Part shown: in pieces, positions 19,919 through 41,500 of the stretch
Position numbering within the stretch: the first letter of the stretch is position 1
Layout of the letters: each line of letters opens with the position of its first letter
From: the human T2T-CHM13v2.0 reference genome, Homo sapiens
DNA length: 64,000 nucleotides
Reading direction: 5' to 3' (one strand)
Assembly: GCF_009914755.1 (NCBI RefSeq)
Contig: NC_060933.1
The notes under the pieces: generated by a model
The model's database searches: none
Seen by the model: the letters and a program-made list of their open reading frames with translations, nothing else
What the model was told of the DNA's origin: nothing
Made by a program: the position numbers and the translations under genes

Positions 19919-22286
19919 TAGCCACTGAGATAGCTGTTTCAGTTTGCTTTTCCTTAATAATACTCTCTACTCGTATTTACTTTGCAGCCCACATTGCTTT
20001 CTTGAGATATATGATCTGATATTATAATTATGCATTCATTTGTTTGTCTAGTTGTTTATTTTCTGTTTGCCCTCAATAGAACAGGTTTCTAGAGCACAAG
20101 GACCAGTCTTTCTGTTCCCTACTGCACCACAGGGCATAAAACAGTACCTGGCACATAGTAGGTGTTTATTAAACACAAGCCCCTTTTCTCTTGTACTTAT
20201 GAGACCACAATAGTTGGAAGCCAAATCCCTGTGTGCTGGCGCAGGGAATGCTACTATAGAGCATCCATAGGGAGGCTGGGGGTGGGGCAGGAGCATCTGT
20301 AGACCCATAGAGAGCTCTGTGGACCCCGTTTTCTCATCCTTAGCAAAAAAGCCCTCAGAGGTCCCGCAGCCGACCTGTGCCTGGTCCCGGTGATGTGGGT
20401 GGTTCCCTCCACGGTATTTTATTGCTTACTTTTATTTCTCGCACAGAGATCACTCTGTGAATTACTTCGTTTTTTAAAAAAGATCGATTCAAATGTAATT
20501 TTTTCATTGTATTAAAATCACAATTTCGAAAGTCCAGTGCTTCTTGAGACTTTAAATTTGGCTGATAAACCGTGTTCTACCCGTTACAGGCAAATGTTAA
20601 TAACTTCCTTTATGAGGCCTGTGGATAATTCTTGGTCCATCACAGACTTAGTTTATTTAATAGCTTTAAACATTTTAATTGCACTTCCAAAATTAATATG
20701 TTTAAATTTATGTTTTAGTACTTCAGCATTCCACCTTTAGCAAAACCTTCTGAGTATAAACTAATTTTTCAAAATCTAATAATTTAAACATATGACTGTG
20801 GGGGGAGGTCTCTTAAATGTTCCAAAACTACACACACACTACAGTTTTCCACATAAAATCACTAACTCATTCAATTCCTCGATTTCACATTTTCAATTGG
20901 ATTATCAGGGTGTCACTGACATAGGCCAAATTCTCCAATACTCAAAATACCAAATTGACATAGATTGCTTTACGCTAAAATATTCATACTGTGAGGTTCA
21001 GTTTCTTGATTCTGTCTAGACTTTAGAAGAAACACACACCTACTCAGGAGGCCGTCTCCACTCAGGGAGCCCAGGTGACTAAGGGCCCGGGAGTCTGGGC
21101 AGCCTGCCGTGGGCTTTTAGCTACCAGCTGTGTGAGTCTTGCCCGTGGCACTTTGGTGAGAAGAGAAGGTGCCAGGAGGGAGGCCACATCTCTGGGTTCC
21201 GTTTCCACACATCCCTGGGAGCCCGCCCTTCCCAGCCACGTTCTGCTCACACTGGGTCTGGCACGGTCAAAGTCGAGGTCTTTAAATGGCTTTGTGTTTT
21301 CAGGCCTGTATGACGCCAGGGACGTGGAGCTGGTCTGCCATGGATGAGCCTCACAGGGCTTTTTCCACTTGGGGTCATGAATCTAACCCTTTTGACACCT
21401 GCGCAGGGGCCATTGGTGGTGCAACTGGGGCCACAGCCCGCCACCTCTCCCTAATGGGACCGAACCCGAGGCCAGCGTTTGCTTCAGGATTTGCTTTTCT
21501 CTAAAAGGCTTTGAAGCTGGGGCCAATCCACCAGTTCCCCTGTTCAGGGGGCAGGTGTCCAATGGCCCCCCACGGGCAATTTCATGCCACCCATCCCCAC
21601 CCCTTCCCCCGCCCCCACCTGAAGCTGCTGCCGTCCCATTCACAGTCCTGCGTCTTTGCAGCACCGGCTTGGACGGGAGCCTGATCCAGTGCCAGCGTGC
21701 CACCCCTTGGCAAGGCTCCTGGTCCGCTCACACCACTTTTCGCCAGCCAATGTCCTCTAGGGTTGCAACCAACTCCCTGCATGCTGGCCCAGGGAGGTTC
21801 CTGGTAATCATCCTGCTTCCCTCTCCCTCCCCTGGGAACCACTCAGACCGCAGTGGACGTTCCTAAACTTCTGTGGACTCACGGCAGATTCTCTGCAAGA
21901 GATTTCCTCAAGGGCTGGATTCCACAAGCCCTTCTGTCCTGCTGCGGGCCTCAGGCAGTGTTCCCGCCAAGCTTTCCCTAAAGACACAAACAGGCAGGCC
22001 CTTCCCACACGGGCCTCAGGGAGCCTTCTGCTGGGCAGAGCGTCCCTGCCAGGGGAAGCCAGGCTCGTTAAGTGGGAAGCCTGTGGGGCCTGCGGAAGAC
22101 AGCGGCCCTGAGGCTGTCTCCACCGCCAGTTGGTGCCACCAAGCCTTCGGGAGGGAGTGGCCATCCCCACTGGGGTTGGGAAATGGAGAGAGAGGTTACA
22201 GTGGGCGGCTGCAGCCCTGTAAGAACCACGGAGTTCCTTCAGTGGCAAAGACCAGAGCCCCAGGGCTGAGCCGAGCTGCCGTAGCC

Positions 22287-22353
22287 ATGGGACCTGCTCT
22301 CCTGGCCCTCTCCTTCCTGTGGACCATGGCCTTGACTGAGGACACCTGTCCAG
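22287..22353 (+). CDS. Ficolin-type signal-peptide exon MGPALLALSFLWTMALTEDTCP (relic exon 1; candidate alternative FCN2 first exon)
   Basis: gccATGG Kozak context, hydrophobic core, DTCP motif and CCAG|GTGAGT phase-1 donor, the same phase as FCN2 exon 1. Translation not demonstrated. Confidence 0.55.
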
Positions 22354-38492: not shown

Positions 38493-38592
38493 ATGGAGCT
38501 GGACAGAGCTGTGGGGGTCCTGGGCGCTGCCACCCTGCTGCTCTCTTTCCTGGGCATGGCCTGGGCTCTCCAGGCGGCAGACACCTGTCCAG
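38493..38592 (+). CDS. FCN2: FCN2 exon 1 (signal peptide, MELDRAVG...ADTCP)
   Basis: ATG at 38493; CCAG|GTAAGG donor. Confidence 0.97.
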
Positions 38593-41500
38593 GTAAGGGC
38601 ACTCCAGGGCCTCCTCTTGGAAACTTCTCGTCCCTGAAAGCTGGCAGCTTCGTGATTGGTGGCTTCCTGGCTTCCAGGCCTTGCACCAGGCCGTGTGGAG
38701 CATCGTCTAACGAGACAGCAGCTCTGCATGCCTCATCTTATGTGAACAAACGCAGAGGCCCCGAATGGATGTGGCATCTCAGAGACGGAGCTTCCTCTGC
38801 TTGCCCTCCCATAATGGAAACCGAGGCAGGTTTCCAGTCTCCCTGGGCCACATGTCCCCCTCTAAGCGTAAAAAGCGTAGTCATGGTGTTGTGTGGGGAG
38901 GTGAGGCTTGTGGTGCCAGCTGGGTAGACACCAGTCAGATATTCTGCCATGGTCGCCATCACAGAGAGACAGGGTGTGAGGTGGGGATAAGCACCCGGAA
39001 AGACAGGGTGTCAGGCGGGGATGAGCACTGCAGGACCTTTCCATCCAGGACCTGCTGGGCTCTGGAGATGGCAGTTCCCATGGTGTCCCTGATGCGGCAC
39101 AATAAGGGTGGCATTGTCCCCGTGAGTTCTGGACCTCCTTCGGGGCTCCCGAGGGGACACTCGGGTGCCAAACCATGGGCTCCGGCGCATGCGAGGGCAG
39201 GTTGAAAATGCAGGTTCTGGAGTCAGGTCCTGACTCCGTCTACCCGGGGCTGGGATGCAGGGTCAGGAATTTGTGATGCTCCTGATGCTTGCAGAGATTC
39301 GTGTCAGGATTTCTGGAATGCATGTGAGACACAGAGCTCTGCGGTGTGCTGTGACTAGCATCGCATTCAAGGAGCAATCCGTGGCGTGAAGTGTGACACA
39401 GGCCAGGAACAGCGGGGATTCGCTTGGAAACTCCTAGTGGCTCGTTGTGGAGTGGTGGGGTTAGGGTGGCATTATTTTCTTCCTTAAATACTTCTAGAGT
39501 TTCTAAATGATCAAATAATAGCACGTGTTATTTTTGTAACACACTCACTTGAATTTGAGTTATCTAATTAAAAACAACAAGCTGCATTCCAGCTCTAGTT
39601 TCGCACCAACTTGTTCAGTGTCCTTGAAGGACGCCTCCCTCTGTGGAGGAACAAGGTGGACCCACAGGAGCCCATCCACTCTCAGATCTGCTCCAAGATC
39701 AGGCGTGGGAGTTGCAATGGTAGCCTCTCTCCCTGTGTCCTTCTCACCCGATATTGATTACAATGATATGATAGATGAGAACAGACGAGATTAGGATGCT
39801 GTCTTAAATGGTAGGAGCTGAAATGAACCTGCACCCCTCGGTAGGTAAGGGAACAGAGGCTCAGAGGGGTTAAGGGACTTGTTTCAGGACACACAGTACT
39901 GAGGAAGTAAGGTTTGCCTTCAGGCAGGGTAGCCTCCAAGGCCAGGGTTCTGCCCCAAATCACCTTTCTGCCTGACCAGTGCCCAAGAGGTGAGGACAGA
40001 CCAAGTGCCCACCAGGGCAGGAAAACCTCCCTTCCAGGTGACCCTCCAGCTGAGGGAGGTGGCTGTGGCTATAGCCATCTGCCCAGTCCTGATGTCACCA
40101 AGATGGCAGATGCCTTTCAGTTGAGTGGTATATCTATGGCTCAGTGGAGTCTTCAGGCCCAGGTGACACTGAGTGGCCACCTGTGTTTTTCTGCAGAGGT
40201 GAAGATGGTGGGCCTGGAGGGCTCTGACAAGCTCACCATTCTCCGAGGCTGTCCGGGGCTGCCTGGGGCCCCTGGGCCCAAGGGAGAGGCAGGCACCAAT
40301 GGAAAGAGAGGTAGGTGCAGGCATGGCTGGGGGCACTGGCTCTTGCTCTTTTTGAAACCAGATGCTGAGTTGGGCAACACCCCCACCATGGTTCCTAGAT
40401 CGAGAGCTGGGTCAGGCCCCTGCAAGAGCCAGGAAAAGAACTGACTCCCAGGGCCCAACAGGGTTCTGACATGGAGGGAGCGTCTTTCTTAGCTATTTCA
40501 TGAGCTCACATTTGGACATGCTTCTGTAGCTCTGTCTCCTAGTCCTTGATCCAATACCAGCTTTGCTCGGCCGCTGGCACGACTTCAAGCTCTGTGTCCC
40601 TCCACCTTCCCACCTCAACACGGAGGCCATGACACTCTTCTCCACCTGTCTCAGATGAGGAAACTGAGGCTCAGAGAGTCCAGGGATTTCGCTCTGTTCT
40701 CACACTTGGAAGGAAAAGAGCCGAGATTCTACCCATGGTCTCTGGATTTCCAGCTCCCGGCCCCTGAGTGAACAGGAGAGCCCCGTGAGGCCTGGGTCCT
40801 GGATCTAGAACCTTCTGGTGCAGGATGGGCAAGCCTGGGCGGGGCCACAGTCACGTCGTAGCACGAGCAGGGTCATGGTCATGATTGGAAATGACAGCCG
40901 CCAGCTCCGGGGTGGGCCCTTTGATCCTGGGCTGGGCAGTTTTCCTCAAGTCAGTGTCTTTGGAAATTGCAGGAGAACGTGGCCCCCCTGGACCTCCTGG
41001 GAAGGCAGGACCACCTGGGCCCAACGGTAAGGAGGGAACAAGAGTGAGAAGCGGCTTCAAGGCCCTTCCAGACCTGGCTGCAGAGGAACGTGAGGCGGGT
41101 CTTCTGGGGCTGCCACGCTGTCCTCGCCAGAGCCAACGCCTGCCCAGGCAGGGCTCTTGGGGCTTAGTCCAGGGCAGGGGTCTCAGTGTGGGGGAAGGGG
41201 TCTCAATGTGTGTGTGGGTTCTCAGTCTGGGGGAGTGGGGTTATCAGTGTGGGAGCTGGTCTCAATGTGTGTAGGGGGTCTCAGTTTGGGGGAGTGGGGT
41301 CATCAGTGTGGGGGCAGGGTTCTCAATGTCGGAGGAGGGGTTCTTGGTGGTGTAGGGAGAGGTTCTTGGGGTGTGTGTTGGGGGAGGGGTTCCCGGTGGG
41401 CAGGCTGTGGGGAGGTGTTATCAGCAGGGAGGGAGGAGCTGTCAATATGGGGGAGAGATTCTGGGATGGGGGAGAGGTTCTGATTATTCGGGGAGGGACT

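What the first reader, a model, noticed from the sequence alone, without database searches (positions are those of the whole stretch)
22218..40310. The dead paralogue's exon 1 could act as an alternative first exon and promoter for FCN2
Seen: the position matching the FCN2 ATG is no longer ATG, but a downstream ATG (22287) has gccATGG context. It opens an intact signal peptide MGPALLALSFLWTMALTEDTCP ending at a consensus CAG|GTGAGT donor in phase 1. Splicing 22353 to 40197 gives ...[14 protein letters not shown]..., a 302-aa in-frame L-ficolin that keeps the N-terminal Cys used for oligomerisation. Inference: exaptation of a pseudogene promoter 16 kb upstream could give FCN2 a second expression pattern independent of the -986/-602/-4 promoter SNPs. 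I recall predicted FCN2 models that extend upstream but cannot verify this.
Basis: partly seen in the sequence, partly recalled or inferred. Interest (0 to 1): 0.75.

Follow-up and report, generated by a model that had tools for sequence, protein, structure and literature searches.

The report
Relic ficolin exon feeding FCN2
About 16 kb upstream of human FCN2 lies the intact first exon of a ficolin gene that monkeys still have and humans have lost, and gene models already splice it onto FCN2, though whether this matters biologically is untested.

Summary
ATG 22287 (gccATGg) opens MGPALLALSFLWTMALTEDTCP. The exon ends at CAG|GTGAGT in phase 1, and joining it to FCN2 exon 2 (40197) gives an open 302-aa L-ficolin precursor.

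The idea is not new as annotation. The RefSeq table supplied with the finding lists FCN2 transcripts whose first exon is 21834/21835-22353.

New here is what the "dead paralogue" is: the human remnant of a third 9q34 ficolin gene. That gene is modelled full-length in macaque ("ficolin-2-like", P0003) and in New World monkeys. The remnant keeps exon 1, part of intron 1 and a frameshifted last exon (25919-26164). Exons 2-7 are absent from the whole T2T genome. ATG 22287 corresponds to the start of the monkey models. In-frame splicing follows from exon phases shared by the paralogues.

NCBI models of Macaca nemestrina and Piliocolobus FCN2 show the same chimera.

Caveats:
- The 5' leader carries a 28-codon uORF in strong context.
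- The constraint test on exon 1 is inconclusive.
- I could see no transcript, CAGE or protein data, and nine literature searches found nothing.

Most likely this is a minor read-through first exon. Exaptation is unproven.

The parts
21834..22353 (+). Alternative first exon of FCN2 in RefSeq predicted transcripts. It is the 5' leader plus exon 1 of the relic ficolin paralogue.
   Evidence: The annotation table supplied with the finding gives exons of other FCN2 transcripts at 21834-22353 and 21835-22353. Sequence read. The exon-1 DNA (22085-22400) has 1 match in the whole T2T genome, itself.
22183..22269 (+). Upstream ORF of 28 codons (ATG in GggaaATGg context, stop TGA 22267-22269), in a different frame from the main ATG.
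   Evidence: only upstream ATG in the exon. The same ATG begins the macaque models (METEVTVGG...), where it is in frame with MGPALL.
22287..22353 (+). Start codon plus 22 codons and 1 base: the signal-peptide exon MGPALLALSFLWTMALTEDTCP, ending in phase 1.
   Evidence: Identical 22/22 to four colobine models, 21/22 to macaque models, 18/22 to two New World monkey models.
22354..22359 (+). Splice donor GTGAGT. With the exon end CAG it matches the donor consensus at 9 of 9 positions (consensus recalled).
22354..25918 (+). Relic intron. The 3' part of ficolin intron 1 (23337-23431 and 25382-25866) is interrupted by a repeat block (23432-25380) whose ORFs look like LINE-1 ORF2. It is fused at about 25867-25895 to the last few tens of bases of the last intron.
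   Evidence: 25382-25866 is 94.2% identical over 485 bp to FCN1 intron 1, and 23337-23431 is 85% identical. Searches show the junction. One search lists the ORFs (LINE-1 identification is recalled; Pfam gave no hit). The repeat-mask coordinates come from the supplied table.
25919..26164 (+). Remnant of the paralogue's last exon (fibrinogen-like domain C-terminus). It has a 2-bp deletion six bases after the acceptor. The homologous frame is otherwise open to the native stop TAG 26162-26164.
   Evidence: Pfam Fibrinogen_C positions 143-220 of 221, E 7.8e-25. 84.8% aa identity to macaque ficolin-2-like against 72% for FCN2's own last exon.
26797..26950 (+). 3' flank homologous to the FCN2 3' flank (45542-45695, 71.5%).
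40197..40310 (+). FCN2 exon 2, the acceptor exon for the upstream first exon. 114 nt, so skipping it also keeps the frame.
   Evidence: and the supplied annotation.

Best explanation
Region 22085-26164 is what remains in the human genome of a third 9q34 ficolin gene. That gene is still modelled full-length in macaque (annotated 'ficolin-2-like') and in New World monkeys.

One deletion fused intron 1 to the end of the last intron and removed exons 2-7. The surviving last exon then picked up a 2-bp frameshift and amino-acid changes at about the neutral rate.

The 5' end survived whole:
- a non-CpG-island promoter region upstream of 21834;
- a 453-nt leader with one uORF;
- the start codon shared with the monkey models at 22287;
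- a 22-codon signal-peptide exon;
- a consensus donor.

All ficolin paralogues end exon 1 in the same phase. Transcripts that start here and run on therefore splice 17.8 kb downstream to FCN2 exon 2. They skip FCN2 exon 1, which has no acceptor. The product is an in-frame 302-aa pre-L-ficolin.

Inferred by alignment with the FCN2 signal peptide, cleavage would fall after ...TMA. Mature L-ficolin would then start LTEDTCPEVK instead of [11 protein letters not shown].

This architecture is already in RefSeq as predicted FCN2 transcripts. I judge it a minor read-through or relic-promoter isoform rather than a demonstrated second regulatory programme.

Shown: the sequence features, the orthology, the loss of exons 2-7, and the existence of the models.
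Inferred: actual usage level, translation, cleavage site.
For: Sequence and frame.

Relic anatomy:
- tblastn/blastn of FCN2 against the window finds only an exon-1-like piece, an intron-1 piece, a last-exon-like piece and a 3'-flank piece upstream of FCN2.
- tblastn of the macaque paralogue P0003 against the window and against the whole T2T genome (69 matches) finds exon 1 and the last exon of the relic. The middle exons match only FCN2 and FCN1.
- The junction is mapped.

Orthology:
- A search with window:22224-22382 returned 8 proteins out of 68 candidates. All 8 are Old World monkey ficolins carrying this N-terminus.
- A search with the relic last exon returned 200 of 209 candidates, 120 listed. 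The best primate hits are monkey 'ficolin-2-like' at 84-85%. All ape hits are true FCN2 at 72-76%.
- In the tree of 33 rows, the relic last exon falls in an SH-aLRT 97 clade with three Old World monkey ficolin-2-like-type models (P0003, P0007, P0008) and two New World monkey proteins. This clade is separate from the FCN2 clade.

Decay versus retention: in 79 last-exon codons there are 8 human-derived changes, 1 monkey-derived and 2 ambiguous. In the 22 exon-1 codons there are 0 human-derived changes.

Transcript models:
- The supplied RefSeq table lists the first exons 21834/21835-22353.
- The chimeric M. nemestrina FCN2 isoforms X4/X6 match that species' FCN2 at 262/262 and 251/251 aligned residues after DTCP. 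Their last 22 residues up to DTCP are 22/22 identical to the paralogue.
- Two Piliocolobus FCN2 models (P0006, P0010) start with the same exon.

The supplied table also lists RefSeq 'enhancer' elements at 21667-22395 and 22396-23123, over the exon.
Against: - I saw no primary transcript evidence: no junction counts, CAGE or long reads. Predicted models can lean on cross-species protein alignments, so the human and monkey models are not independent.
- No human or ape protein with this N-terminus appeared as a separate database entry (0 of 8 hits). Clustering with canonical FCN2 could hide it.
- The leader has a strong-context uORF ending 17 nt before the main ATG. That should depress translation and could expose the mRNA to decay.
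- The donor must skip the relic's own acceptor (25918|25919) and 22 other crude acceptor-like sites before 40197.
- Three colobine copies of the paralogue (P0007, P0008, P0009) contain garbled stretches. 'Intact in monkeys' is therefore firm only for macaque and New World monkey models.
- Nine literature searches found no paper on this exon.
Confidence: 0.6

Rival explanations
1. Adaptive exaptation. After the paralogue's body was lost, its promoter, start codon, signal peptide and donor were kept by selection as a second promoter for FCN2. This would give L-ficolin an expression pattern independent of the canonical promoter and its -986/-602/-4 variants.
For: - Exon 1 has 0 human-lineage amino-acid changes in 22 codons, while the relic last exon has 8-10 in 79.
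- By my own arithmetic from those counts, the chance of 0 changes at the last-exon rate is about 0.05-0.10.
- The ATG context, donor and frame are all intact.
- The same chimeric architecture is modelled in M. nemestrina and Piliocolobus.
- RefSeq regulatory elements overlie the exon (supplied table).
Against: - The constraint test is weak. With a generic neutral expectation of about 1.4 non-synonymous changes (my estimate, no call), the chance of 0 is about 0.25.
- The phase match is inherited, not acquired.
- The uORF lies out of frame with the main ORF in human, whereas in the macaque models that ATG is in frame with it.
- In M. nemestrina NCBI models the same chimera, and the paralogue is modelled full-length in the genus (P0003). 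Read-through splicing may therefore need no exaptation.
- No expression data and no literature.
Confidence: 0.15
2. Annotation artefact. The upstream first exon is joined to FCN2 only in computed models, built from sparse reads or homology to monkey proteins. No productive mRNA or protein arises from it.
For: - Only predicted transcripts carry it. The selected NM transcript starts at 38481 (supplied table).
- No separate human protein entry with this N-terminus turned up.
- No paper was found.
- Monkey models around this exon are visibly inconsistent: retained intron in P0010, skipped residues in P0006-P0008.
Against: - Two RefSeq models give 5' ends 1 nt apart (21834/21835), which suggests read support rather than homology alone (inference).
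- The donor is a full consensus match, and the nearest in-phase ficolin acceptor with an open frame is FCN2 exon 2.
- NCBI and Ensembl-type pipelines modelled the same join in other species.
Confidence: 0.15
3. The relic acts mainly as a non-coding regulatory element. It would be an enhancer, or the promoter of a short non-coding pseudogene transcript (exon 1 to relic last exon, polyadenylated near AATAAA 26598). Splicing into FCN2 would be an incidental by-product.
For: - RefSeq lists enhancers at 21667-22395 and 22396-23123 (supplied table).
- The relic acceptor ...tttttccctctgagcag|GT is only 3.6 kb from the donor, and an AATAAA follows at 26598.
- Exon 1 joined to the relic last exon runs into a stop after about 21 codons because of the 2-bp deletion. 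I read this by eye.
Against: - The supplied RefSeq table shows no exon at 25919-26164 in any transcript.
- The relic acceptor has a competing AG three bases upstream.
Confidence: 0.1

Closest known systems
RefSeq predicted FCN2 transcripts with first exon 21834/21835-22353 (annotation table supplied with the finding)
   Same: Same exon, same donor at 22353, same gene.
   Different: These are predicted models only. I saw no coding span, tissue or support level.
Macaca mulatta 'ficolin-2-like isoform X2' (P0003, 337 aa; a cluster of 36 sequences)
   Same: It is the orthologue of the relic.
- N-terminus identical at 21 of 22 residues.
- Last exon 84.8% identical.
- Same clade in the tree.
- Has Collagen and complete Fibrinogen_C domains.
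   Different: It is a full-length gene in the macaque. The human copy lacks exons 2-7 and has a frameshifted last exon.
Macaca nemestrina 'ficolin-2 isoform X4/X6' (P0004, P0005) and Piliocolobus 'ficolin-2' (P0010, P0006)
   Same: Same chimera: paralogue exon 1 joined to FCN2 exon 2 and onward.
   Different: - The macaque models start at the upstream ATG, which is in frame there.
- They skip some collagen exons.
- P0010 retains intron sequence before exon 2.
Canonical FCN2 exon 1 (38481-38592) and FCN1 exon 1
   Same: They are homologous over about 270 bp including the proximal upstream region. The exon end is identical (...ACCTGTCCAG|GT). All share a hydrophobic signal core and the DTCP cysteine motif.
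   Different: - The canonical ATG column is CAG in the relic, and translation starts 9 codons further in.
- The relic has a 9-nt deletion and a 3-nt insertion relative to FCN2.
- Only FCN2 has TATAAG. The relic has TGTAAG and FCN1 has TGTTAG.
Read-through (conjoined) transcripts between tandem paralogues, and first exons donated by pseudogene remnants (general category, recalled)
   Same: An upstream promoter and donor splice into the second exon of the downstream paralogue and skip its first exon.
   Different: Here the upstream gene has lost its body, so the chimera is the only coding product left. I cite no specific published example.

Membership tests
Alternative first exon / alternative promoter of FCN2 | A transcript joins the exon's donor to a downstream FCN2 exon | not testable with these tools
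   The only support is the supplied RefSeq table (other transcripts with first exon 21834/21835-22353). I could reach no RNA-seq, long-read or EST data. The supplements of PMC10828381, a liver splicing study, were too large to read.
Alternative first exon / alternative promoter of FCN2 | A functional donor and a frame compatible with the acceptor exon | tested here: met
   CAG|GTGAGT, phase 1. The join to 40197 gives 302 codons with no internal stop.
Alternative first exon / alternative promoter of FCN2 | An independent transcription start site with promoter activity | not testable with these tools
   - No CAGE data were available.
- The sequence is not a CpG island (observed/expected CpG 0.32-0.35).
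- By eye there is a CCAAT motif about 85 nt upstream of 21834.
- RefSeq 'enhancer' features overlap the exon (supplied table).
Ficolin (collagen-like plus fibrinogen-like lectin) - the chimeric product | N-terminal signal peptide and Cys-containing segment, collagen-like region, C-terminal fibrinogen-like domain | tested here: met
   Everything from exon 2 on is canonical FCN2. The N-terminus keeps the hydrophobic core (best 9-residue Kyte-Doolittle mean 2.21, against 2.43 for FCN2) and DTCP. The same 22 residues form the N-terminus of the colobine models. No signal-peptide predictor was available.
Gene remnant of a paralogue that is intact in other primates (lineage-specific gene loss) | Closest relatives are a distinct intact gene in other species, not the neighbouring human paralogues | tested here: met
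   The last exon is 84.8% identical to macaque ficolin-2-like, against 72% for FCN2's own last exon to that protein. The relic exon is 76.6% identical in DNA to FCN1's last exon. The clade has SH-aLRT 97.
Gene remnant of a paralogue that is intact in other primates (lineage-specific gene loss) | Disabling lesions in the human copy | tested here: met
   Exons 2-7 are absent from the window and from the whole genome. There is a 2-bp deletion at the start of the last exon. Derived amino-acid changes number 8 in human against 1 in monkeys.
Gene remnant of a paralogue that is intact in other primates (lineage-specific gene loss) | Same genomic position (synteny) in the species with the intact gene | tested here: inconclusive
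   No primate DNA was available. There are two weak pointers. P0003 and the M. mulatta FCN2 isoforms sit on a contig of the same length, 128,971,188. NCBI also files the M. nemestrina chimeras under the FCN2 gene.

The most novel reading that the evidence does not exclude
In the human lineage (possibly all hominoids), a two-gene ficolin locus became one gene with two promoters. After a deletion removed the body of the monkey-type 'ficolin-2-like' gene, its promoter, start codon, signal peptide and donor were kept under selection. They drive a differently regulated pool of L-ficolin, for example extra-hepatic or inducible. Part of the lost gene's expression domain would thus live on through FCN2, independent of the classical FCN2 promoter variants.
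Probability: 0.12. Interest if true: 0.6.

Novelty: new member of a known kind. Interest (0 to 1): 0.35.

Why it matters
L-ficolin level is a studied risk factor for infection. It is usually explained by three promoter variants and two coding variants of FCN2. A second start site 16.6 kb upstream would lie outside every genotyping scheme, and it would change the first residues of the mature protein.

The papers I read say that humans have three ficolin genes (abstract and passages of PMC3240626). This locus shows the remains of a fourth ficolin gene, which macaque and New World monkey models still show full-length. That bears on the use of macaques as models for the lectin pathway, and on the history of FCN2.

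As it stands the exon is already in RefSeq predicted models and its use is unquantified. The practical weight is therefore modest.

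Tried and rejected
- **Internal Met shared with FCN1.** I suspected that ATG 22287 matches the second Met of FCN1's signal peptide. The three-way alignment does not put them in the same column, so I dropped the idea. The Met is shared instead with bat, colugo and lemur ficolins of the same N-terminal type (by eye).
- **'TATA box decayed in the relic'.** Rejected. Only FCN2 has TATAAG; FCN1 and the relic both lack it.
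- **Constraint on exon 1.** 0 changes in 22 codons against 8-10 in 79. My arithmetic gives P of about 0.05-0.10 at the empirical rate and about 0.25 at a generic neutral rate. This is inconclusive.
- **Literature.** Nine full-text searches found nothing on an upstream FCN2 exon, a human ficolin pseudogene or a fourth primate ficolin:
  - FCN2 + alternative promoter
  - ficolin + pseudogene + FCN2
  - ficolin-2-like
  - ficolin + unitary pseudogene
  - FCN2 + first exon
  - LOC101448202
  - FCN2P1/FCN1P1/FCN4/ficolin-4/ficolin pseudogene/FCN2-like (20 of 36 listed, all unrelated uses of 'FCN4')
  - ficolin + FCN2 + gene loss + primates
  - FCN2 + alternative transcription start
- **Passages read.**
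  - PMC2813875: FCN2 was an exon-array splicing candidate in blood cells and is not among the 6 of 10 confirmed by qRT-PCR.
  - PMC3240626: 'pseudogene' there means rodent FCN3.
  - PMC10828381: FCN2 appears only as a gene down-regulated in NASH. Its supplements were unreadable.
- **Repeat block.** Pfam on two ORFs of 23432-25380 gave no family. Calling it LINE-1 rests on recall.
- **Tandem repeats** in 22300-26300: none.
- **Ape status.** No ape protein of the paralogue type appeared among the 120 listed hits. Database clustering could hide one, so the timing of the loss within apes is open.

Full report
**1. The observation**

The bases are as described. ATG 22287-22289 sits in gccATGg. The frame reads MGPALLALSFLWTMALTEDTCP plus one base, and the exon ends at 22353 before GTGAGT. 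FCN2 exon 2 starts at 40197 behind a good polypyrimidine tract.

I joined 22287-22353 in silico to the annotated FCN2 coding exons 2-8. The result is 909 nt, which is 302 codons plus a stop, and it reads ...[14 protein letters not shown]... The canonical join gives 313 codons.

The annotated exon 21834-22353 contains three ATGs, at 22183, 22287 and 22326.
- The first is in strong context (G at -3, G at +4).
- It opens a 28-codon uORF ending at TGA 22267-22269.
- That uORF is in a different frame from the main ATG and ends 17 nt before it.

**2. Already annotated**

The RefSeq table supplied with the finding gives the FCN2 gene span as 21834..45194. It lists "exons of other transcripts 21834-22353, 21835-22353". 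No other extra exon is listed, and FCN2 exon 1 has no acceptor: the bases before 38481 are ...gaagca. These transcripts must therefore join 22353 to exon 2 or a later FCN2 exon. Exon 2 is 114 nt, so either choice stays in frame. The proposed isoform thus already exists as a predicted model.

**3. What the "dead paralogue" is**

Pieces found upstream of FCN2 in the window:

| Window position | Matches | Identity |
|---|---|---|
| 22085-22358 | FCN2 38318-38597 (proximal upstream region and exon 1) | 65% (blastn; MAFFT mean column identity 77%) |
| 25705-25865 | FCN2 intron 1 | 77% |
| 25904-26167 | FCN2 last exon | 78% nt |
| 26797-26950 | FCN2 3' flank | 72% |

A protein search with window:22224-22382 returned 8 proteins out of 68 candidates. 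All 8 are Old World monkey ficolins that carry this N-terminus.
- P0003 is Macaca mulatta "ficolin-2-like isoform X2", 337 aa. It is full-length, with Collagen and a complete Fibrinogen_C domain.
- Its C-terminus resembles the relic last exon. tblastn gives 84.8% identity over 79 residues to 25925-26161, against 72% to FCN2's own last exon.

A search with the relic last exon returned 200 of 209 candidates, 120 listed.
- The best primate hits are monkey ficolin-2-like proteins at 84-85%.
- One frog protein scored higher in bits, at 67% identity.
- Ape hits are only true FCN2 (Pongo 75-76%, Pan 72%).

In a quick maximum-likelihood tree of 33 rows, the relic last exon sits in an SH-aLRT 97 clade. 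That clade holds three Old World monkey ficolin-2-like-type models (P0003, P0007, P0008) and two New World monkey proteins (Plecturocebus P0114, Aotus P0106). It is separate from the FCN2 clade of human, Pan, Pongo, three Old World monkeys and Saimiri. Only 24% of the columns are filled for the relic row, so its exact place inside that clade is not resolved.

The macaque protein searched against the whole T2T genome gave 69 matches. It finds relic exon 1 and the relic last exon. For the middle exons it finds only those of FCN2 and FCN1. The exon-1 DNA is unique in the genome.

The human genome therefore holds exon 1 and the last exon of a ficolin gene that monkeys have whole.

**4. How it broke**

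- Region 25382-25866 is 94.2% identical over 485 bp to FCN1 intron 1, ending 33 bp before FCN1 exon 2. Region 23337-23431 matches the adjoining piece at 85%.
- Between these lies the masked block 23432-25380. Its ORFs look like LINE-1 ORF2. That identification is recalled, and Pfam found nothing.
- After 25866 the similarity to intron 1 stops. From roughly 25895 the sequence aligns with the last 20-25 bases of the last intron of FCN1 and FCN2, then with the last exon.
- One deletion, from just before exon 2 to just before the last exon, explains this layout.
- The last exon lacks 2 bp six bases in, relative to both FCN1 and FCN2. The ficolin frame is otherwise open to the native stop.
- I polarised the changes with two New World monkey sequences. 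The 79 last-exon codons carry 8 human-derived changes, 1 monkey-derived and 2 ambiguous. That pattern fits relaxed constraint on the human side.

**5. Why the first exon still fits**

In the three-way alignment, FCN1 and FCN2 share an ATG column that reads CAG in the relic. All three copies end exon 1 at ...TGTCCAG|GT.
- The macaque models read Q, not M, at the residue that I align by eye with the start Met of bat-type ficolins.
- NCBI models of New World monkeys and of two colobines start at the M of MGP.
- ATG 22287 therefore corresponds to the start of those monkey models, not to a lucky new ATG.
- Phase compatibility with FCN2 exon 2 is inherited.

The 22 residues are identical in four colobine models, 21/22 in macaque models and 18/22 in two New World monkey models. 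No signal-peptide predictor was available. The hydrophobic core is comparable to FCN2's: best 9-residue Kyte-Doolittle mean 2.21 against 2.43. By alignment with the FCN2 signal peptide, cleavage after ...TMA is expected. This is an inference.

**6. Is it used?**

Points in favour:
- The RefSeq models exist.
- NCBI's Macaca nemestrina FCN2 isoforms X4 and X6 have the last 22 residues up to DTCP identical (22/22) to the paralogue. Their remaining residues are 262/262 and 251/251 identical to that species' FCN2.
- The Piliocolobus FCN2 models P0010 and P0006 begin with the same exon.
- RefSeq regulatory elements overlie the exon (supplied table).

Points against or open:
- I could see no reads, CAGE, long reads or peptides.
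- The modelled 5' end (21834/5) is about 410 nt upstream of the position that matches the FCN2 start. Monkey and lemur models also contain sequence matching the 22183 region. The uORF is therefore probably part of the mRNA.
- The relic's own acceptor and an AATAAA at 26598 offer a short non-coding alternative. RefSeq lists no exon there.
- The region is not a CpG island.
- Zero changes in 22 codons against 8-10 in 79 gives P of about 0.05-0.10 by my arithmetic. That is not decisive.

**7. Literature**

Nine full-text searches and passages of three papers gave nothing on this exon, on a human ficolin pseudogene at 9q34, or on a fourth primate ficolin.

PMC3240626 (abstract and passages) states that three ficolin genes are known in humans. 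It uses 'pseudogene' only for rodent FCN3.

Subscription journals are not covered. The supplements of PMC10828381, which may list liver first-exon events, could not be read.

**8. Verdict**

The alternative first exon is real as annotation and makes sense mechanistically, but exaptation is unproven and the leader looks unfavourable for translation.
- The new element is the identification of the relic as the human remnant of a ficolin gene that macaque and New World monkey models show full-length.
- Interest is modest.

Noticed in passing
window 25382-25866 and 23337-23431, against FCN1 intron 1 (chr9:147138202-147138686 and 147138733-147138825, minus strand; loci L002/L003): A 485-bp tract of the relic intron is 94.2% identical to FCN1 intron 1, in inverted orientation about 50 kb away. 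The relic's exons are only 66-77% identical to FCN1. This looks like a gene-conversion tract or a fairly recent exchange between FCN1 and the lost paralogue.
   Followed up: partly
window 23432-25380 (+): The masked block inside the relic intron carries ORFs that look like the C-terminal part of LINE-1 ORF2, followed by an A-rich tail. It is absent from the matching place in FCN1 intron 1. The identification is by recall; Pfam found no family.
   Followed up: partly
window 22183-22286, against P0003-P0005 and P0093: The upstream ATG that opens a separate 28-codon uORF in human is in frame with the main start in the macaque models, and a lemur model (Prolemur) carries a similar in-frame extension. 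That gives a 30-35-residue extension in front of the signal peptide. Colobine Ensembl-type models skip residues here, as if to avoid a frame problem. I do not know whether the extension is ever translated.
   Followed up: no
P0007 (Rhinopithecus bieti), P0008 (Colobus), P0009 (Pygathrix): The colobine copies of the paralogue contain out-of-frame-looking or deleted stretches in the middle of the protein. Either the gene is also decaying in colobines or these assemblies and models are poor.
   Followed up: no
N-termini: P0016-P0024 (bats), P0039/P0052 (colugo), P0019/P0093 (lemurs), P0121 (tarsier): The relic's N-terminal type (...AMGP/MRP..L.L..FLCT.A...DTCP) is widespread in mammals. Among the N-termini listed, the FCN2 type (MELDRAV...) appears only in tarsier and anthropoid proteins. 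The lost human gene may therefore represent the older lineage and FCN2 the younger duplicate. Species-wise clustering in the tree (Mustela, Carlito) suggests gene conversion, which blurs the picture.
   Followed up: partly
window 38452-38457, against 22218-22223 and FCN1: Only FCN2 has TATAAG at this conserved promoter position. The relic has TGTAAG and FCN1 has TGTTAG.
   Followed up: no
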